DNA of 64,000 nt from a virus (IMGVR_UViG_3300026549_000038:32001-96000); one strand, 5' to 3'. Shown: positions 26,816 to 55,438, counted from the first letter of the stretch. The notes: generated by a model not told the origin, from the letters alone. Program-made: numbers and translations.

Positions 26816-28021
26816 TTATTCACCAGCTTTGAAGTTATACACGGGCTTTATAATATCTACAATCTCAGCTGTGGGTTCAATACACCGGATAATCTCATCC
26901 ATTGGCTTGTAGGCCATCGGTGATTCGTCAATGGTTCCCTTTCCGACAGTTGTTGAGTAGATTCCGGACATTGTGTTCTTGAACTCATCAACCGAGAGGG
27001 TATCCTTTGCCTTGGCACGGGACATCAGTCTTCCAGCGCCGTGTGGGGCAGAGTAGTTCCAGTCAGGATTACCTTTGCCGATACATATCAGTGAGCCATC
27101 ACGCATATTCATCGGGATGATGAGCTTCTCGCCGGCATCGGCGCGGACCGCTCCCTTGCGAAGTATCATCGCGTCGGCGTCGATATAGTTGTGGATGGTT
27201 TCAAATTCATCCTGAGCCACCCAGTTCATCTTGTCACAAATGATTCTGGCTATGGTTTCCCTATTCTTTACGGCATATCTTTGAGTAATCTCCATGTCGT
27301 GAATATACGAATTGAAGTTCTCACCGGTCAGGTGTGCAAGGTCTTTTGAGGCAGATGGTTTCTTGAGAAGCTTGAGTTCTTTCTGAATATCTTTCTGGCG
27401 ACCTTCTGCGGTAAGTTTCTTAATAAGCGCTCTTTTAGCAGTAGACATTTCATTGAGGCACTTAAATGCAAGGTCTTGATAAAACTTACATACTTGAACC
27501 CCAAGATTTCTACTACCGGAATGGATAACTAAGTAAACGTCTCCCCCTTCTGAGCGGTCGAGCTCGATAAAGTGATTTCCACCACCAAGAGTCCCAAGGC
27601 TCTTTATTACTCTGGATGAATCTATACCGTTGATACAATATAGGTCGTCCAGTTCTGGAAACTTTGCCCAGGCCTGGCTATGAATATCGAATCCCGATGG
27701 AACAAATTTGTGTATTACTTCGTCGAGTTTCTTATAATCGTCTTCAGTAATATCAGTTTCGCCCATCTTTCGAATCTTCATAACACGCATACCGCAGCCA
27801 ATATCTACACCGACGAGATTTGGGGTTACCGCACCGTGCAGAGTCATCGTTGTGCCAATTGTGCAACCCTTGCCGGCATGTGCGTCCGGCATGATCCGGA
27901 TAGTCGAATCAGCATAGGGAGAATAGTTGGCCAGAGTCTTCACCTGGTCATAAGCCTCATATTCGAAGGTCTCGGCGAAAACCTTCACCGGAGAGCCGTT
28001 ATTTCTCTTAATTTCAATCAT
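26816..28021 (-). CDS. rtcB: RNA-splicing/repair ligase RtcB
   Basis: MPDAHAG, VGVDIGCG, GTLGGGNHFIE, IHSGSR, HNY, SAPHGAGR, DESPMAYK motifs. Confidence 0.95.
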   Translation of the reverse strand: MIEIKRNNGSPVKVFAETFEYEAYDQVKTLANYSPYADSTIRIMPDAHAGKGCTIGTTMTLHGAVTPNLVGVDIGCGMRVMKIRKMGETDITEDDYKKLDEVIHKFVPSGFDIHSQAWAKFPELDDLYCINGIDSSRVIKSLGTLGGGNHFIELDRSEGGDVYLVIHSGSRNLGVQVCKFYQDLAFKCLNEMSTAKRALIKKLTAEGRQKDIQKELKLLKKPSASKDLAHLTGENFNSYIHDMEITQRYAVKNRETIARIICDKMNWVAQDEFETIHNYIDADAMILRKGAVRADAGEKLIIPMNMRDGSLICIGKGNPDWNYSAPHGAGRLMSRAKAKDTLSVDEFKNTMSGIYSTTVGKGTIDESPMAYKPMDEIIRCIEPTAEIVDIIKPVYNFKAGE

Positions 28022-42953: not shown

Positions 42954-43073
42954 TGACCCAGGCGGGGTTCGAACCCACGACCTTTGGTCTTAGTTCAAGG
43001 CTTTACGAGGATTTCTCCGCGGACACTCCCCAACCTTTACTTGCCAACGCTCTACCGACTGAGCTACTGGATC
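42954..43073 (-). ncRNA. tRNA-like RNA with expanded (~55 nt) anticodon domain
   Basis: Canonical acceptor, D and T arms; anticodon loop replaced by a structured insert. Confidence 0.8.
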
Positions 43074-44948: not shown

Positions 44949-45503
44949 TTAATTCTCTGGGTAGCCGCTAAGCTGGTATGCTTCGCGCAGGACCGTACGG
45001 ATATTATCCAGGCACTGTCCGAGGAGGTTCTTCCCCTGCCATTCGCTTGGCCAGTCAACTCTCGGGTCGGTGTAATGAATGCCTACACCCCAAATCTTAT
45101 CACTCGGACTTCCTTCGACGAAGTGTTTTCCTTCGAATTCTGGGTCGAGTATGAGATCTTTAAGTGCTGGATTTTGTATAAACTTTGCCATCAGGGCAAT
45201 CTCCATATATTCCTGCCTATGCTCAACCCAGTCGTCTTCTTTGAATCCCTTGACTTTTCTTCCGAGATACTTTGCATCTCTCGGGGTCTCGGCTGCACAG
45301 ATAAGACTCGCAGTCAGCTCATCGCCAAAATGAACTGCTTTAAGATACATAAACAACTGTTCAGAACTCTTAAAGACCTTGCCGTGGTATTCGACTCTAC
45401 AATTGTAAAAGTTTGACAGTCCGCTACCATAGAAAGCAACGTGTTTGTCATATATAATCAACCCGTGTCGAAGGCCAGATTCTCTTGTCTTTTCTGGTGT
45501 CAT
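44949..45503 (-). CDS. NADAR (YbiA-like) family protein
   Basis: SNFY, SEQLFMYLKA..FGD, AKFIQN, EGSPSDKIWGVG, GKNLLG motifs. Confidence 0.92.
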   Translation of the reverse strand: MTPEKTRESGLRHGLIIYDKHVAFYGSGLSNFYNCRVEYHGKVFKSSEQLFMYLKAVHFGDELTASLICAAETPRDAKYLGRKVKGFKEDDWVEHRQEYMEIALMAKFIQNPALKDLILDPEFEGKHFVEGSPSDKIWGVGIHYTDPRVDWPSEWQGKNLLGQCLDNIRTVLREAYQLSGYPEN

Positions 45504-48251: not shown

Positions 48252-48327
48252 TGCCTCCGGTGGGTCCCGCCCCCACGATCACACATCTTAAAAGGATGGT
48301 GCTTTAATCCAACTCAGCTACAGAGGC
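48252..48327 (-). tRNA. tRNA-Lys(UUU), atypical T loop
   Basis: Cloverleaf, T loop GGCGGGA. Confidence 0.82.
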
Positions 48328-49307: not shown

Positions 49308-49391
49308 TGGTAGCGGGAGGAGGGCTCGAACCTCCGAGGCTTTCGCTGCGGCTTATGGGACCGCCCAGATACCGACTTCTGACATCCCGCT
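49308..49391 (-). tRNA. tRNA-Met/Ile2(CAU) with small variable arm, CCA encoded
   Basis: Cloverleaf, loop CCCATAA, extra GC-GAAA-GC arm. Confidence 0.8.
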
Positions 49392-49393
49392 AG

Positions 49394-49492
49394 TGGTGGG
49401 AGAAGGATTCGAACCCCCAATAGGATTTAACCGAGAATTTACCCACAACCTACTCAATGAAGATTGCCTGTCTGCCATTCCAGCACCCCACC
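49394..49492 (-). ncRNA. tRNA-like RNA with enlarged anticodon loop and long variable arm
   Basis: GGTGGGG/TCCCACC acceptor, D and T arms; 9-11 nt anticodon loop. Confidence 0.7.
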
Positions 49493-49499
49493 TTAATTG

Positions 49500-49571
49500 T
49501 AGCCCGGGTAAGAATCGAACTTACGCTTCAAAATTTGCAATTTTGCGCTCTGCCAACTGAGCTACCGGGCC
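49500..49571 (-). tRNA. Second tRNA-Cys(GCA) with A73
   Basis: Cloverleaf, loop TTGCAAA. Confidence 0.8.
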
Positions 49572-49614
49572 TGGATTGATCATTCATATCCATCCTGATC
49601 AACCGAGTACATTC

Positions 49615-49883
49615 GCAAAGATACCTTCAGAGATTTTAGAATAAAGCTGTATACGTATTAGTATAAGACTCCTGCGATTGACCTCTTCGCCACAGCACCA
49701 TGTTTGAATATATTTATATTTAGAGGTGCTGATGGGATTCGAACCCACGAATTAGGAGTTTTTTTTTTGAAGTGTAAATCCTCTCTGGTACTTCGCTTGA
49801 CCTTAAATCTAAAGCTCTTGACCCAATTCTAAATCTGATTATCTCGGATTTTTAAAACTAAATCTAAAGCTGAAGCTTTGGTC
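49615..49883 (-). ncRNA. Circularly permuted tRNA-like RNA with upstream hexamer repeats
   Basis: 3' half (49759-49724) precedes 5' half (49699-49668); all four stems complementary. Confidence 0.8.
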
Positions 49884-49973
49884 AATATGTTTTGTCAATA
49901 ATTTCAAAAGAACATAAGCCTTTCACTTATTCGATTACATCCGCTTAAGCGCTGTAACTTCTGCGCTCTGCAA

Positions 49974-50768
49974 CTAACCCCTGTAGAGATAATCTACAAA
50001 CTGGTTTACATCCAGATTCGGTTGTTCGACCTCCGTGTCATTTACAACCTTGAGAGCCTCGATCACTGCTGCAAGCAAGTCAGAGCGTCTGCGAAGCAAC
50101 TCTGCTCTCTCCCTCTGAGTCCACTCACCAGTAAACATCTGCTGAGTATAGTCACCGGTCTCGACTGTCTTGCTTTTGACTGTGGTCTTTGCAGTGTAGT
50201 TTGACGGAAGATGTGACGGATCCAGGTTAGGGTCCTTAAGGATAACCTCCTCCTTCTCTGTCGTACGAGTGACACCCTTGACAAGCTCGGTCTCGAATAC
50301 TCTTCTACCAGCATACTCTGAGTCGGTTGTCTCTTTCCAAACCTCGCTGTCACTACGAACAGGAATGTTTGCAAAGACGGCCTCCAGGTCCTTATTTGTA
50401 AGGATGTTCTTGAGTCTCATAAGCTCCAGAGCGGTAAGGTTTCCGAATGAGTGTCCGTTAACTACAAGCTCGGTGGTTTTTGCTCCCTTGGAGTTCGTTG
50501 ACTCAACACTGAACACGTCTGTAAGCCAGTTCTTGAACTGCTTATTGAACCAGTCAAATTTCTCGTCTACTGTGGTAGCAACTACCTGAGTACCCATCTT
50601 TGAAGGGTCCTCGAAATATCCGTCTCTCGGAACAAATGTTTTCTTGTAACCGCGAAACATCCCCTGCTTATTCTTGAAGAAGCTTGCGTAATCGGCAAAT
50701 AACCTTGCAATACCTGCGCTTGAATGCTCAACCTTGGCGAGCATAGTATTCATCTTAATGTCTCTCAT
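49974..50768 (-). CDS. Conserved phage hypothetical protein (resembles DUF7873-type proteins from memory, unverified)
   Basis: MNTMLA, FRGYKKTF.P, LELMRLK, IPVR, RTTEKE, FTGE..QRERAELL pattern; biased codon usage suggesting high expression. Confidence 0.7.
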   Translation of the reverse strand: MRDIKMNTMLAKVEHSSAGIARLFADYASFFKNKQGMFRGYKKTFVPRDGYFEDPSKMGTQVVATTVDEKFDWFNKQFKNWLTDVFSVESTNSKGAKTTELVVNGHSFGNLTALELMRLKNILTNKDLEAVFANIPVRSDSEVWKETTDSEYAGRRVFETELVKGVTRTTEKEEVILKDPNLDPSHLPSNYTAKTTVKSKTVETGDYTQQMFTGEWTQRERAELLRRRSDLLAAVIEALKVVNDTEVEQPNLDVNQFVDYLYRG

Positions 50769-50828
50769 AAAGCTTAAAATATCATTAGTTATGTTAATAT
50801 ATATTAAATGATGATGCAAAATTTAGTT

Positions 50829-51335: not shown

Positions 51336-52562
51336 TTATTTATTTGTTGATATTATATGATACAAATCATACCTAGAATCAATCAAAAGTTTATTCACTG
51401 CATCATAATCTATATGATCTTTCAGTGTAGATGTCTTTTCAAGCATCATGAGCTCTTCTCTTTCCTTATTCACAATAGACATGATTTCATCATACTCATA
51501 CTTGTGATTACGGATATCTAGCAAGAAATCCCTGTCTTTATCTCGAACCACGTTAAATCCCTCACCCCGGAGAAGCTCATTGGACATTCTCAAGAGCCGG
51601 ACACAATGCATCATATTCTTTGAGTCATAATTCTTGTTCAGATTACTCTCATACCTGACCGGATTCCTATGTGCCTCCCACTCCTTGTATTCCTTGTAGT
51701 CTTTGCAGTGAGAAGTATACCCATCTCGGTTGAAGTAAAGATAACAAATCGGTGAATCTCCCTCTTTGACAGCGGAAAGTCTTATGTCATTGGATTTGGT
51801 ATAGTCATCAGGATTCACGATTCCTTCATAACCGTAGAACTCTTTTTCCCAAATACGATTTCGTATCCGGACTGCCTCTTGAGGATCTTTGATAAGCTTG
51901 TTATATGGGTAAGGGATACTTGGATAGGGGTTACATTTTGCCCAATCTGGCAGTGCTTCAAAGTGGAAAAATGCAGCCCAATCATAGTAAACTCCATAGA
52001 CATCTTTCATATTCGGTATGTTCACTAGACCGCAGTACCTTTGGTTTAGGTGGTTGTCTTGCAGGAATTTCTTTATGGGTTGAGATCCCTGATTCTTGAA
52101 GGTATAGCAAAAATCCAGCGGATCTTTTCTCTCACTGACAGGATTAACTATCTTCTTATTCAGCCCCCTGGCTTTATATATTTGACTAATAGCGTACCCA
52201 GAAAAGCTCTTCACACATTCTTTCGAGAGAAAGAGGTCCCTATGAGAGATTATATTCTGAATCACCGGATGTACTTCTCCAACTATACAGTCCTTCGGAA
52301 CGAACAGGCTTTCCAGAACAGAAGGATTTGACTTAAGCAGCAGTTCTATCCATCTCCCGAACTCCCAATAGACAGTGTCGTGCCTGCTGTCTGAGACTTG
52401 TTCTGTGTATGTAGAACGAAGTCCGATAATCTGCTGAACCGGAGCCACGAACACACCACCTATATCTTTATCTGATGTCTCTGTGTTGAGATGGTACATG
52501 TGAGATCCGCGGACATATTCAAAAATAATCAGTTTGTTTTTTCTAAGTCCTTCTATGGTCAT
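51336..52562 (-). CDS. Pol-beta superfamily nucleotidyltransferase (YcgL/RlaP-like)
   Basis: GSHMYHLNTETSDKDIGGVF, NPSVLE.L, YDSKNMMHCVRLL motifs. Confidence 0.85.
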   Translation of the reverse strand: MTIEGLRKNKLIIFEYVRGSHMYHLNTETSDKDIGGVFVAPVQQIIGLRSTYTEQVSDSRHDTVYWEFGRWIELLLKSNPSVLESLFVPKDCIVGEVHPVIQNIISHRDLFLSKECVKSFSGYAISQIYKARGLNKKIVNPVSERKDPLDFCYTFKNQGSQPIKKFLQDNHLNQRYCGLVNIPNMKDVYGVYYDWAAFFHFEALPDWAKCNPYPSIPYPYNKLIKDPQEAVRIRNRIWEKEFYGYEGIVNPDDYTKSNDIRLSAVKEGDSPICYLYFNRDGYTSHCKDYKEYKEWEAHRNPVRYESNLNKNYDSKNMMHCVRLLRMSNELLRGEGFNVVRDKDRDFLLDIRNHKYEYDEIMSIVNKEREELMMLEKTSTLKDHIDYDAVNKLLIDSRYDLYHIISTNK

Positions 52563-52585
52563 AACTATTAATTTATATATTATAT

Positions 52586-52924
52586 TCAATTACATGTCAA
52601 ATTTTTTGTTATGTCTTCTAAAATTTTCACGTTTTTTAGAAGTGGTTCATTATCTGTTCCATAACCAATAAGTTCTCCTTCTACAAGATACGCTTTTTGT
52701 GGGTCTGCAACTTTGTAAATCAGGCCGAGTTGCGACAATAATCCGTAAAGGGTTGAAATTTTTGCCTCATTTATCGGTGAAGGTAATATGATATTCCAGC
52801 GTTTATTGGAAAACATACACTCATAACAAGATATTCCGATTTCTTCACCTATTTGTTCGCCGCCGTGCCATATCTTTGATTTACCATCTTTTGGAAGTTC
52901 TCCAATACGTATATATTTTTTCAT
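52586..52924 (-). CDS. Hypothetical protein
   Basis: YIRIGE.P...G.GTDNEPLL pattern. Confidence 0.65.
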   Translation of the reverse strand: MKKYIRIGELPKDGKSKIWHGGEQIGEEIGISCYECMFSNKRWNIILPSPINEAKISTLYGLLSQLGLIYKVADPQKAYLVEGELIGYGTDNEPLLKNVKILEDITKNLTCN

Positions 52925-54643: not shown

Positions 54644-55438
54644 TTAAACGGTATTAATATTGCGGTTTGTCTTCTTTTCCAGTTCTCTAAAGTCCTTTGT
54701 CTTGACCTTAGTGATAATTCTGCGGCCCATCCTGTCGAGAAGTCCCAGAGGAGCCCTAAGAACAATTCCTTCTGCTTCCAGTGTCGGGTCTTCAGAAACT
54801 GCAGAAGCAAAACCAGCCTTCACTTTTTCGATTGCTTCCTGCAGGGTCATCTCTCCGAGGTAAGGTACAACATCGATACCGAGTTTACCACAGATATCTT
54901 CTACAGCTTCTCTCCTCAGCCAGGTATCTCCAATCTTAATGTCAAAGCAGATAAACTTGAGACGATCCTTGCAATACCTTCCTCCTGCTGCCTGCATCTT
55001 CTTGCCGTATGTCTCTCCGAAGATTATACACTCGCTTTCCGGCAGAACGATGTCTGTTTTTCCTTCTCCGTACTCAGGAGCAGGCCGCTCACAGCTGAAT
55101 GCTTTAATGAGCTTATCCTTGTCTCCGAGAGATTTCAGAAGCTCTACTTCATCCGGTCTCATATTTGCTTTGTCGGTCTTGCCATGTACTTCTACATCGT
55201 AGTATTCAACTTCTGACCACTTGCCAGGCATCACTTCCGTATCTACAGTCTTTGGAATAAGGTGGATGCTTGTGCACTCTCCATCTACCTTCTCTGTTGC
55301 TTCCCACTTAGCATTGAGCTTGTCCAACAGTTCAAACTCCGGAGTAGTCAACTCAGTAGGAATAATACAATTGTAGGTAGGGCTATTTTTATCTAAATCT
55401 CGCTTAAAACACGTGTTAATTTTCGTATACCACTGCAT
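54644..55438 (-). CDS. ATP-dependent RNA ligase (Rnl2-like nucleotidyltransferase domain)
   Basis: TEKVDG, FGETYG, FICFDI, EGIVLR, TKVK motifs. Confidence 0.85.
   Translation of the reverse strand: MQWYTKINTCFKRDLDKNSPTYNCIIPTELTTPEFELLDKLNAKWEATEKVDGECTSIHLIPKTVDTEVMPGKWSEVEYYDVEVHGKTDKANMRPDEVELLKSLGDKDKLIKAFSCERPAPEYGEGKTDIVLPESECIIFGETYGKKMQAAGGRYCKDRLKFICFDIKIGDTWLRREAVEDICGKLGIDVVPYLGEMTLQEAIEKVKAGFASAVSEDPTLEAEGIVLRAPLGLLDRMGRRIITKVKTKDFRELEKKTNRNINTV

What the first reader, a model, noticed from the sequence alone, without database searches (positions are those of the whole stretch)
49795..49883. Hexamer-periodic repeats (AGCTTT/AGATTT) between that gene and the permuted tRNA
Seen on the minus strand: CAAAGCTTCAGCTTTAGATTTAGTTTT, ATCAGATTTAGAATT and AAGAGCTTTAGATTTAAGGTCAAG, i.e. 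three tracts of A(G/A)N-(T/A/G)TY units with AGCTTTAGATTTA repeated exactly. They sit 5' of the T arm, where a tmRNA carries its mRNA-like domain. One frame reads DQSFSFRFSFKNPR-stop (alternating Phe). Inference: these are either multivalent binding sites for an oligomer of the upstream protein or a template for a tag-like peptide.
Basis: partly seen in the sequence, partly recalled or inferred. Interest (0 to 1): 0.78.

Follow-up and report, generated by a model that had tools for sequence, protein, structure and literature searches.

The report
Hexamer tracts of phage tRNA-mimic RNA
The six-base repeats are real, conserved building blocks of an undescribed ~315-base folded RNA that heads the tRNA gene array of Lak-type gut phages and carries a back-to-front tRNA look-alike; they most likely form a docking track for a multi-subunit protein and are not a peptide template.

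Summary
Observation confirmed and extended. On the minus strand, 49888-49572 is one non-coding unit. It has a covarying helix P1 (UUGACC/GGUCAA), a small hairpin and four tracts of AGCUUU-type hexamers. These are joined to a long bulged helix, a circularly permuted tRNA-like module and a 3' hairpin that abuts the first true tRNA. I found the same unit in more than 110 gut and rumen phage loci, directly after a DUF7873 gene (45-86% identity). Lak-A1, B4 and C1 each hold one copy about 180 kb from their DUF7873 gene, in front of tRNA-Lys. Consensus hexamer: A1, G2 and U5 near-invariant, positions 4 and 6 free. Median 10 AGCNUN per element against 1.1 expected. No frame is conserved and no acceptor stem has G3:U70, so the peptide/tmRNA reading fails. 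Distant DUF7873 lineages also carry AG-phased hexamers plus permuted tRNA mimics. DUF7873 is predicted to self-associate. Best reading (about 0.45): a multivalent single-stranded protein-binding track, with DUF7873 the prime candidate. Rivals: RNase E/G-type entry sites (RN|WUU) and RNA-RNA pairing. It matches no Rfam 15 family. This scan has already reported the DUF7873/tRNA-mimic pair on many other genomes.

The parts
49572..49888 (-). Whole non-coding RNA unit (about 317 nt), from helix P1 to the base before the first tRNA
   Evidence: Conserved end to end in 25-39 representative homologues (alignment A2). No terminator between the ORF and the tRNAs. No Rfam family at E<=10.
49880..49885 (-). 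P1 5' strand, UUGACC
   Evidence: Pairs with 49823-49818. Across 57 distinct sequences P1 is 96% paired. Pair 5:128 is UA 40 / CG 14; pair 9:124 is UA 24 / CG 17 / AU 8. 0 of 500 shuffles reach the covariation score.
49854..49877 (-). Hexamer tract 1: AGCUUC AGCUUU AGAUUU AGUUUU
   Evidence: Family profile: AGCUU(U/C), AGCUUN, AG(A/C)(C/U)U(C/U), AGCNUU.
49831..49851 (-). P2 hairpin (AAAUC / GAUUU) presenting the conserved loop motif AUCC(U/G)AGAU
   Evidence: The hairpin is kept in all clades but in two registers. A compensatory change is seen in L015 (AGUC/GACU).
49825..49836 (-). Hexamer tract 2: AGAUUU AGAAUU (the first unit overlaps the P2 3' strand in this clade)
49818..49823 (-). P1 3' strand, GGUCAA
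   Evidence: see the P1 5' strand.
49805..49816 (-). Hexamer tract 3: AGCUUU AGAUUU (family: AGCUUU AGCUUU AGCNUU)
49783..49796 (-). Outer bulged helix, 5' strand (GCGAAG-UACC-AGAG)
   Evidence: Pairs with 49632-49615. RNAalifold pairs in columns 137-143 / 363-369 show up to 12 of 25 sequences changed on both sides.
49668..49759 (-). Circularly permuted tRNA-like module. In order: ACUCC, T arm (49748-49732), acceptor 3' strand (49731-49725), tail UCUA and closing loop (49724-49700), acceptor 5' strand (49699-49693), D arm (49690-49674), GGAGU (49672-49668)
   Evidence: There are 25 distinct, perfectly paired 7-bp acceptor stems in the family. T and D stems covary. The loop varies from 18 to 245 nt. 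The tail is UCUA, UCAA or UCCA.
49637..49648 (-). Hexamer tract 4: AGCUUU AUUCUA, in the internal loop between the module and the outer helix
   Evidence: At least one AGCNUN at this place in 71 of 72 unique elements; two phased units in 45 of 72.
49615..49632 (-). Outer bulged helix, 3' strand (CUCU-GAA-GGUA-U-CUUUGC) with a conserved GAA-type bulge
49573..49604 (-). 3' hairpin with a conserved GGAU loop motif, abutting the first tRNA
   Evidence: columns 392-428.
49499..49571 (-). First true tRNA of the array (Cys-GCA). Its RNase P site would set the 3' end of the unit
   Evidence: In relatives the unit is always followed within about 0-3 nt by a tRNA.
49974..50768 (-). DUF7873 gene (264 aa), candidate protein partner
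   Evidence: PF25283, E 9e-29. More than 550 homologues. AF2 model pLDDT 85 with no convincing fold match. Predicted self-association.

Best explanation
The repeats are single-stranded AGNNUU-type hexamer tracts (AGCUUU in this clade) of a conserved ~315-nt non-coding RNA. The RNA is transcribed on the minus strand, between the DUF7873 gene and the tRNA array. Covarying helices (P1, P2, the outer bulged helix) hold the tracts in fixed places around a permuted, anticodon-less tRNA mimic. I read the tracts as a multivalent docking track: one 6-nt unit per subunit of an oligomeric RNA-binding protein. That would resemble TRAP on its (G/U)AG repeats or Cas7 on crRNA. The prime candidate is DUF7873. 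The result would be a Ro-independent particle that presents the tRNA mimic, within a phage tRNA/RNA-repair island. Shown: the repeats, their phase, their conservation, the flanking RNA helices, the gene-RNA synteny and the absence of an ORF. Inferred: that the tracts are unpaired in vivo, that a protein binds them, and that the protein is DUF7873.
For: (1) Phase and sequence are conserved in 52-57 distinct elements. A1, G2 and U5 are near-invariant while positions 4 and 6 vary. The median is 10 AGCNUN per element against 1.1 expected from composition. (2) The tracts are bracketed by RNA helices with compensatory changes and G-U pairs, which makes the feature strand-specific and so RNA-level. 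Variable hairpins are inserted within tract 1 without disturbing the phase. (3) The unit follows DUF7873 in more than 110 of 123 loci, across 45-86% protein identity. (4) I sampled DUF7873 lineages that match my profile only at E 1e-12 to 1e-15 (L200, L204, L206). They are also followed by AG-phased hexamers (AGAUUU, AGACUU, AGUGUN) plus permuted tRNA-like modules. In L200 a 42-nt tract of 7 units forms the loop of a 6-bp stem. (5) Lak-A1, B4 and C1 keep both the gene and the RNA, though apart. (6) complex prediction with three copies of DUF7873 gave score 0.60, best of 3 controls 0.14. That mark was reached by 20 of 30 proteins solved as pairs of one chain and by 1 of 23 solved as single chains. 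The runs agree in at least 81% of contacts and the partner's pLDDT is at least 82. The C-terminal helix 243-264 docks on the neighbouring copy. The calibration used two copies, so these counts hold only roughly. (7) The neighbourhood is an RNA-repair and tRNA island: RlaP, an Rnl2-type ligase, NADAR and RtcB.
Against: DUF7873 has no recognisable RNA-binding fold and is mostly slightly acidic, pI 5.6-6.9. In the three Lak records the gene and the RNA are about 180 kb apart, so adjacency is not obligatory. Synteny among related phages can be inherited rather than selected. The strict AGCUU of the first two units of tracts 1 and 3 would also fit tract-to-tract pairing through AGCU palindromes; 90-96% of those cells are pairable but none covary. 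An earlier in-house check, reported in note e1-2703945, priced 'the protein latches onto the RNA' at only 22/100.
Confidence: 0.45

Rival explanations
1. The tracts are clustered entry or cleavage sites for a host RNase E/G-type endonuclease. They would serve as a landing pad at the head of the polycistronic tRNA precursor, either speeding its processing or titrating the nuclease.
For: The hexamer A-G-(C/A)-(U/A)-U-U fits the in vivo RNase E core motif RN|WUU. The two best-conserved hexamer positions, G2 and U5, fall on R(-2) and on the critical U(+2). The window's AGAUUU equals the ArcZ site GA|UUU (PMC5222698). RNase E processes tRNA precursors by direct entry through adjacent single-stranded segments (title and abstract of PMC3985628). 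The unit always heads a tRNA or a tRNA array, also in Lak where DUF7873 is far away. Bacteroides thetaiotaomicron rings for the RNase_E_G family in the control search.
Against: RN|WUU carries little information, roughly 1 random hexamer in 30 at this composition, and it does not explain the invariant A1 or the strict 6-nt phase. Position +1 is not W in many later units. Cleavage in the tracts would destroy an RNA whose elaborate fold is conserved. The host and its RNases are unknown.
Confidence: 0.2
2. The tracts act through RNA-RNA pairing. Tract 1 may pair with tracts 2 and 3 (AGCU palindromes, or AGAUUU self-pairing with G-U). That would give a rod or pseudoknot that alternates with P1. Alternatively the tracts may pair between molecules and build multimers.
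For: Single-sequence folds put the tracts into long imperfect duplexes: z = -4.9 for the window and -3.6 for L016, with 0 of 200 shuffles folding as well. Columns 13-23 are pairable with 131-141 in 90-96% of 57 sequences. AGCUU is strictest in exactly the units that would pair.
Against: No pair inside the tracts covaries; they never vary, or vary on one side only. The five sequences with AGCA in tract 3 are not compensated. The outer part of the rod is paired in only 40-70% of cells, against 96% for P1, and P1 crosses the tract 1/tract 3 duplex. Distant lineages keep AG at period 6 but not the AGCU palindrome.
Confidence: 0.17
3. The repeats work at the DNA level, as a promoter-proximal array or as iteron-like sites for a phage regulator of the tRNA operon.
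For: Direct repeats near the start of a transcription unit. A TTGAC motif and a boxA- or -33-like UUCUUUGA lie just upstream.
Against: TTGAC covaries with a downstream GTCAA as an RNA helix would. G-U pairs make the structure strand-specific. Tract 4 lies about 230 nt downstream, inside an RNA internal loop. In many relatives the unit starts 3-20 nt after the stop codon, with no room for a promoter. The promoter scan found nothing above shuffles.
Confidence: 0.05
4. The tracts are translated (SFSF or ALAL peptide), or tract 4 serves as a very short tmRNA-like tag template on a two-piece tmRNA.
For: A weak Rfam tmRNA_permuted match, 21.5 bits, covers the T arm and acceptor. Tract 4 read as GCN-UNA-GCN-UAA gives Ala-Leu-Ala-stop in 17 of 72 elements and sits where a permuted tmRNA would carry its frame.
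Against: The score is below the gathering score of 47 and covers only the tRNA-like part. ARAGORN calls no tmRNA. No G3:U70 in 25 distinct acceptor stems, nor in the G-U-containing ones. The 'tag' is 1-10 codons long, is a single codon in 16 of 72, and has no stop in 4. The S-F frame has a start in only 4 of 55. The variable hexamer positions (4 and 6) do not follow a codon wobble pattern in either open frame. The phage has no SmpB.
Confidence: 0.03

Closest known systems
YrlA-type bacterial Y RNAs with Ro60/Rsr, especially the Mycobacterium smegmatis form (Chen et al. 2014, PMC4201824)
   Same: A tRNA-like module with T arm, D arm and acceptor-like stem closed by a loop, carried on a long bulged stem in place of an anticodon arm. 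The stem has 7 bp, as in M. smegmatis YrlA, which is cut by RNase P and receives CCA. Here U(-1), G1 and a U73-C-N-A tail (true UCCA in four lineages) fit the same processing. Both lie in an RNA-repair gene neighbourhood.
   Different: No TROVE/Rsr gene in this genome or in five relatives, four of them at least 94% complete. The GNCGAAN0-1G Rsr-site motif is not conserved. No Rfam hit. At 315-530 nt it is much larger, with about 10 phased hexamers, P1/P2 and a 3' hairpin that YrlA lacks. It heads a tRNA array.
TRAP on the Bacillus trp leader (11 (G/U)AG triplets, 2-3 nt spacers) and HutP (own knowledge)
   Same: NAG triplets repeated at a fixed 5-6 nt period in single-stranded, U-rich RNA, about 10-11 per RNA. 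In a distant relative the tract is a closed loop that could wrap a ring.
   Different: No TRAP-family protein in the phage. The tracts are split into four blocks fixed by helices. The function is not attenuation of a downstream ORF. Position 5 (U) is also conserved.
Cas7 backbone on crRNA (6-nt periodic, one subunit per 6 nt; own knowledge)
   Same: Six-nucleotide register. The candidate partner is predicted to self-associate head to tail.
   Different: Only weak Foldseek rows to Cas7 subunits (E 0.04-0.3, TM about 0.12-0.15), not backed by VIA-align. Cas7 binding is not sequence-specific.
Two-piece (circularly permuted) tmRNA
   Same: Gene order: T arm, acceptor 3' strand, intervening loop, acceptor 5' strand. 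Possible two-piece maturation.
   Different: No G3:U70, no conserved tag frame, a true D arm, no pseudoknots found, and below the Rfam and ARAGORN thresholds.
RNase E recognition motif RN|WUU (Chao et al. 2017, PMC5222698)
   Same: G2 and U5 of the hexamer coincide with R(-2) and U(+2). AU-rich, single-stranded context at the head of a tRNA precursor.
   Different: The strict phase and the invariant A1 are not part of that motif. No cleavage data.

Membership tests
YrlA / bacterial Y RNA | tRNA-like module: T arm, D arm and acceptor-like stem closed by a loop, with no anticodon loop | tested here: met
   the stems covary and there are 25 distinct perfectly paired acceptor stems.
YrlA / bacterial Y RNA | Encoded within a few kb of an rsr (Ro60/TROVE) gene | tested here: not met
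   PF05731 is absent from the 160-kb record and from five relatives' records, while the control genomes ring.
YrlA / bacterial Y RNA | Conserved GNCGAAN0-1G motif of the Rsr-binding stem (PMC4201824) | tested here: not met
   The window has AGCGAAG at 49797-49791, but the homologous positions read GUGAGA, GCAGAG, GUAAAA and so on (A2).
YrlA / bacterial Y RNA | Match to a curated covariance model | tested here: not met
   No Y-RNA-type hit at E<=10 in the window or in L016.
YrlA / bacterial Y RNA | Bound by Rsr in vivo | not testable with these tools
   The host is unknown and there are no binding data.
tmRNA (two-piece) | G3:U70 alanine identity pair in the acceptor stem | tested here: not met
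   The 3:70 pair is GC 15, CG 8, UA 1, AU 1. G-U pairs occur only at 7:66 and 4:69, and one stem has U3:G70.
tmRNA (two-piece) | Conserved tag reading frame with resume codon and stop | tested here: not met
tmRNA (two-piece) | Detection by ARAGORN or by the Rfam gathering score | tested here: not met
   No tmRNA call. tmRNA_permuted scores 21.5 bits against 47, over the T arm and acceptor only.
tmRNA (two-piece) | SmpB partner | tested here: inconclusive
   Absent from the phage, but a host SmpB could serve.
TRAP/HutP-type repeat leader | Many NAG triplets at a fixed 5-7 nt period in single-stranded RNA | tested here: met
TRAP/HutP-type repeat leader | A TRAP-family protein is present | tested here: not met
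   PF02081 is absent from the phage record. The host was not tested.
Permuted tRNA gene (Cyanidioschyzon type) | 3' half upstream of 5' half, with complementary acceptor strands | tested here: met
Permuted tRNA gene (Cyanidioschyzon type) | The ends can be rejoined into a 7-nt anticodon loop (BHB motif and splicing endonuclease) | tested here: not met
   The stem opens into internal loops of more than 20 nt and then into an outer helix of variable length. No tRNA_int_endo in the phage.
RNase E/G site cluster | RN|WUU with U at +2 in unpaired RNA | tested here: met
   By sequence only.
RNase E/G site cluster | Cleavage at these sites | not testable with these tools

The most novel reading that the evidence does not exclude
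The hexamer track is a molecular ruler on which DUF7873 polymerises, one subunit per six bases. This builds a Ro-independent ribonucleoprotein that displays a two-piece tRNA mimic, cut by RNase P and tipped with CCA. Phages would use this particle, encoded at the head of their tRNA arrays and next to RNA-repair enzymes, to capture or decoy host tRNA-cleaving defence nucleases, or to recruit repair enzymes to damaged tRNAs.
Probability: 0.2. Interest if true: 0.9.

Novelty: new variant of a known kind. Interest (0 to 1): 0.74.

Why it matters
Lak megaphages and their 150-320-kb relatives are abundant in human and animal guts, and their large tRNA arrays are thought to support host take-over and escape from tRNA-targeting defences. 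This work finds a large, strongly conserved structured RNA at the head of those arrays. It combines a tRNA mimic with about ten phased protein-type recognition units, matches no Rfam 15 family, and was in no paper my searches found. It gives a concrete handle on how such phages handle tRNA. It also gives a testable RNA ligand for DUF7873, a family with no assigned function and more than 500 representative clusters, found in many phages. If the track binds an oligomer with a 6-nt register, that would be a new example of sequence-phased RNA coating outside TRAP and CRISPR backbones.

Tried and rejected
- **Peptide reading.** All three frames were tested over 55 unique sequences. Rejected.
- **tmRNA reading.** Tested with ARAGORN, Rfam, the G3:U70 pair, tract-4 frames and SmpB. 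Rejected.
- **YrlA membership.** Tested by TROVE searches, the Rsr motif and Rfam. It resembles YrlA in plan but is not a member.
- **TRAP, RNase E/G and tRNA splicing endonuclease genes in the phage.** None found.
- **Fold of DUF7873.**
  - Foldseek on the PDB gave nothing at E<=0.001. Its weak Cas7/Cascade rows were tempting because of the 6-nt register, but TM is about 0.12-0.15.
  - VIA-align gave only generic helical matches, Z<=6.5.
  - PHROGs and the ESM Atlas gave no function.
- **Rod-like alternative fold of the 5' domain.** It is pairable but does not covary, and it is inferior to P1.
- **Naive all-against-all covariation scan.** Too noisy to use.
- **Exact T-arm/acceptor pattern in IMG/VR.** It found only ordinary tRNAs.
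- **Protein-independent pattern TTGACNNNAGCTTNAGCTTNAG in IMG/VR.** The only true elements lay in contigs already known to carry DUF7873. The two weak model hits (L145, L188) are antisense to alanine/glutamate-repeat coding sequence.
- **Genome-contig scan.** It returned only two MAG contigs, so there is no host information.
- **Hexamers over the DUF7873 ribosome-binding site (lead from note e1-5658729).**
  - The window has one AGCUUU abutting the ATG (50774-50769).
  - This is not conserved in its clade; only some relatives show U-rich phased units. Left open.
- **Pairing of the tracts with the UCUAAA tail of the closing loop.** Present in the window but not conserved.
- **Burroughs and Aravind 2016.** It could not be read.

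Full report
**Observation**

- AGCTTTAGATTTA is present twice exactly (49871-49859, 49816-49804) and nowhere else in the 160-kb virus record that holds the window.
- A third, shorter copy, AGATTTAGAAT, lies at 49836-49826.
- Within 49888-49796, six of the twelve AG dinucleotides have another AG exactly 6 nt downstream. None of 5000 dinucleotide-preserving shuffles reached this.
- The frame D-Q-S-F-S-F-R-F-S-F-K-N-P-R-stop reads as stated.

**Setting**

The window belongs to a large phage. It carries 26-29 tRNA genes on the minus strand and RNA-repair genes:
- RtcB at window 26828-27940;
- an RlaP nucleotidyltransferase at 51336-52589;
- an Rnl2-type RNA ligase at 54644-55438 and NADAR at 44949-45503.

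The ORF just upstream of the repeats (49974-50768, 264 aa) is a DUF7873 protein (PF25283, E 9e-29). Its DNA is about 64% identical to Prevotella phages Lak-A1, Lak-B and Lak-C. No terminator-like site lies between this ORF and the tRNAs.

**Homologous loci**

DUF7873 has more than 550 close homologues. I fetched their neighbourhoods from assemblies, IMG/VR and metagenomes: L010-L016, L017-L055 and L056-L135.

In about 110 of 123 loci with enough downstream DNA, the stop codon is followed by one and the same non-coding architecture:
1. T(T/C)GACN;
2. tract 1 (3-4 hexamers);
3. a hairpin presenting AUCC(U/G)AGAU;
4. tract 2 (2 hexamers);
5. NGUC(A/G)A;
6. tract 3 (2-3 hexamers);
7. the 5' strand of a long bulged helix;
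8. a circularly permuted tRNA-like module: T arm, acceptor 3' strand, closing loop of 18-245 nt, acceptor 5' strand, D arm;
9. tract 4;
10. the 3' strand of the bulged helix, with a GAA-type bulge;
11. a hairpin with a GGAU loop;
12. a true tRNA.

The protein identity to the window spans 45-86%.

**Conservation pattern of the repeats**

In 52 unique sequences the profile is as follows:
- tract 1: AGCUU(U/C), AGCUUN, AG(A/C)(C/U)U(C/U), AGCNUU;
- tract 3: AGCUUU, AGCUUU, AGCNUU.

A1, G2 and U5 are the most constant positions; 4 and 6 are free. An element holds a median of 10 AGCNUN units (range 4-13), against 1.1 expected from base composition. At least one AGCNUN sits at the tract-4 place in 71 of 72 unique elements. 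Clade-specific hairpins are inserted inside tract 1 without shifting the phase.

**RNA helices around the tracts**

I built a covariance model of the 5' domain (R1). It aligned 58 elements, 57 of them distinct (A4).
- P1 (UUGACN/NGUCAA) is paired in 96% of cells. Two positions change on both sides: UA 40 / CG 14, and UA 24 / CG 17 / AU 8. No shuffle of 500 reached the observed covariation, and slid registers collapse.
- L051 differs from its near relative by a double change that extends P1 (UUGACUUAA/UUAAGUCAA).
- P2 exists in two registers in different clades, at 77% in the modelled one. L015 shows a compensatory A-U to G-C change.
- RNAalifold on the full-length alignment recovers the acceptor, T and D stems and part of the outer helix, with many double changes.
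- The family holds 25 distinct, perfectly paired 7-bp acceptor stems.
- G-U pairs make the structure specific to the tRNA strand.

The repeats are therefore parts of a structured RNA and not a DNA-level array.

**Link to DUF7873 versus link to the tRNA array**

The DUF7873 loci of Lak-A1, B4 and C1 have no such RNA and no tRNA within 3 kb. Yet each of these 540-550-kb genomes holds exactly one strong R1 match (about 80 bits). It lies about 180 kb away, behind a divergently oriented gene. It has the complete tRNA-like module and tract 4, and tRNA-Lys(UUU) follows directly. So the unit always heads a tRNA, and it is usually, but not always, next to DUF7873.

I also sampled DUF7873 representatives that match my profile only at E 1e-12 to 1e-15. 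They too are followed by gene-free stretches that hold AG-phased hexamers and permuted tRNA-like modules, some with an encoded GCCA:
- L200: AGGCUU AGGUUA AGAUUC AAAUUU, then AGAUUU three times, forming the 42-nt loop of a 6-bp stem;
- L204: AGUUUA AGUGUU AGACUU AGAUUA;
- L206: AGUGUC AGUAUU AGUGUA.

What survives at this distance is AG at a 6-nt period in U-rich RNA, not the AGCU core. This partly confirms, on my own data, notes from earlier sessions of this scan. Those notes report the DUF7873/tRNA-mimic pair on many other genomes.

**What it is not**

*A peptide template.* No frame is conserved.
- The S-F frame has an in-frame start in only 4 of 55 sequences and is closed by UAA just before the tract wherever P1 reads UUGACU.
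- The A-L frame starts at the UUG inside P1, which is UCG in 14 of 57. It stops after three codons in 18 of 55.
- The third frame stops at once.
- The variable hexamer positions do not follow a wobble pattern.

*A tmRNA.*
- ARAGORN finds none.
- The Rfam permuted-tmRNA match is 21.5 bits against a gathering score of 47 and covers only the T arm and acceptor.
- No stem has G3:U70.
- The would-be tag in tract 4 is 1-10 codons long and unstable.
- The phage has no SmpB.

*A YrlA member.*
- No TROVE gene in this genome or in five relatives' records, four of them at least 94% complete.
- The GNCGAAN0-1G motif that marks the Rsr site (PMC4201824) is not conserved.
- No Rfam family matches.

The plan nevertheless resembles M. 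smegmatis YrlA, whose 7-bp acceptor stem is cut by RNase P and receives CCA. Here too the stem has 7 bp, position -1 is mostly U, and the strand ends U73-C-N-A. Four lineages have a true UCCA. Two-piece maturation is therefore plausible, but it is an inference.

**How the tracts most likely work**

The conservation pattern has two or three fixed bases per six, a strict phase, and tolerance of insertions between units but not within them. The tracts also sit in loops held by helices. Together these are the signature of repeated protein contacts on single-stranded RNA, as with TRAP or HutP on NAG triplets (own knowledge).

The best candidate is DUF7873.
- It travels with the RNA over great evolutionary distance.
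- It is predicted to self-associate. Complex prediction with three copies gave score 0.60, best of 3 controls 0.14. That mark was reached by 20 of 30 proteins solved as pairs of one chain and by 1 of 23 solved as single chains. The runs agree in at least 81% of contacts and the partner's pLDDT is at least 82. The calibration used two copies, so the counts hold only roughly. The C-terminal helix 243-264 docks on the next copy.

Against it:
- it has no recognisable RNA-binding fold;
- most members have a pI of 5.6-6.9;
- gene and RNA are apart in the Lak records;
- there are no binding data at all.

I put the protein-track reading at about 0.45, with DUF7873 as the partner in most of that.

**Rivals**

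*RNase E/G-type entry sites (0.2).* The hexamer fits RN|WUU, with G2 and U5 on the informative R(-2) and U(+2). The unit heads a tRNA precursor, and such precursors are processed by direct entry through adjacent single strands (PMC3985628). However, the motif carries little information and does not explain the phase or A1.

*RNA-RNA pairing of the tracts (0.17).*
- Single-sequence folds are unusually stable: z = -4.9 and -3.6.
- Tracts 1 and 3 are pairable through AGCU palindromes in 90-96% of sequences. No such pair covaries, and AGCA variants are not compensated.
- The rod's outer part is worse than P1, and P1 crosses the tract duplex.

*Others.* DNA-level sites (0.05) and translation or tagging (0.03) are disfavoured, as set out above.

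**Novelty**

I found no Rfam 15 family and no paper naming DUF7873. None of the paper searches turned up this RNA.

Within this scan the gene-RNA pair has been reported repeatedly on other genomes.
- the anatomy and statistics of the hexamer tracts in the Lak-type clade;
- the P1/P2 frame;
- the fourth tract;
- the uncoupled arrangement in the Lak-A1, B4 and C1 genomes;
- the match to the RNase E motif;
- an explicit test of the rod alternative.

I class it as a new variant of a known kind: a tRNA-mimic RNA scaffold with a repeated protein-binding track.

Noticed in passing
window 49904-49916 (-): GUUCUUUUGAAAU, a boxA-like or -33-like motif about 20 nt upstream of P1. UUCUUUGA(A/C)A recurs at the same place in relatives that have a spacer after the ORF (L010, L012, L017). 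It is missing where the RNA starts 3-20 nt after the stop codon.
   Followed up: partly
window 50769-50774 (-): A single AGCUUU hexamer abuts the ATG of the DUF7873 gene. It is not conserved in the window's clade. L068 and L102 show 3-4 phased A(C/G)UUUA units before their start codons.
   Followed up: partly
window 42954-43073, 48252-48327, 49394-49492, 49308-49391 (-): Odd tRNAs. One Rfam tRNA hit is 120 nt long, so it holds an insertion. One tRNA is seen by Rfam only. One of 99 nt has an oversized anticodon loop and a long variable arm (29.1 bits). An 84-nt CAU tRNA also scores weakly as tRNA-Sec-like.
   Followed up: no
L016 3847-3856, 4002-4011, 4321-4330: In the ~185-kb relatives a hairpin with loop CUGUGAAGAU precedes successive tRNAs: 3 copies in 5.8 kb against 0.07 expected. 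Similar UUGUGAAAGU loops sit inside the enlarged acceptor-closing loops of L047, L050 and L055. The motif resembles the CUGAAGRUAU strand of the outer helix.
   Followed up: partly
L016, L023-L036, L045, L134, L135 (acceptor-closing loop): The loop that closes the acceptor stem grows from 18-30 nt to 117-245 nt in some clades. There it forms its own stem and carries further AGCAUN-type hexamers.
   Followed up: no
L046, L055, L106 (first tRNA after the unit): In some relatives the tRNA directly after the unit is a suppressor type (anticodon CUA or UUA), which points to stop-codon recoding in those phages. In the window the DUF7873 ORF ends with TAG where relatives end with TAA after the same ..Y(R/K)G, so TAG looks like a true stop here.
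   Followed up: no
window 26828-27940, 44949-45503, 51336-52589, 54644-55438 (-): RtcB, NADAR, an RlaP nucleotidyltransferase and an Rnl2-type RNA ligase surround the tRNA array. Together they form an RNA-repair and anti-toxin island.
   Followed up: partly
L060, L117, L048, L125: In a few relatives an extra ORF or 0.3-1.2 kb of other sequence is inserted between the DUF7873 stop and the RNA unit. The unit itself stays intact.
   Followed up: no
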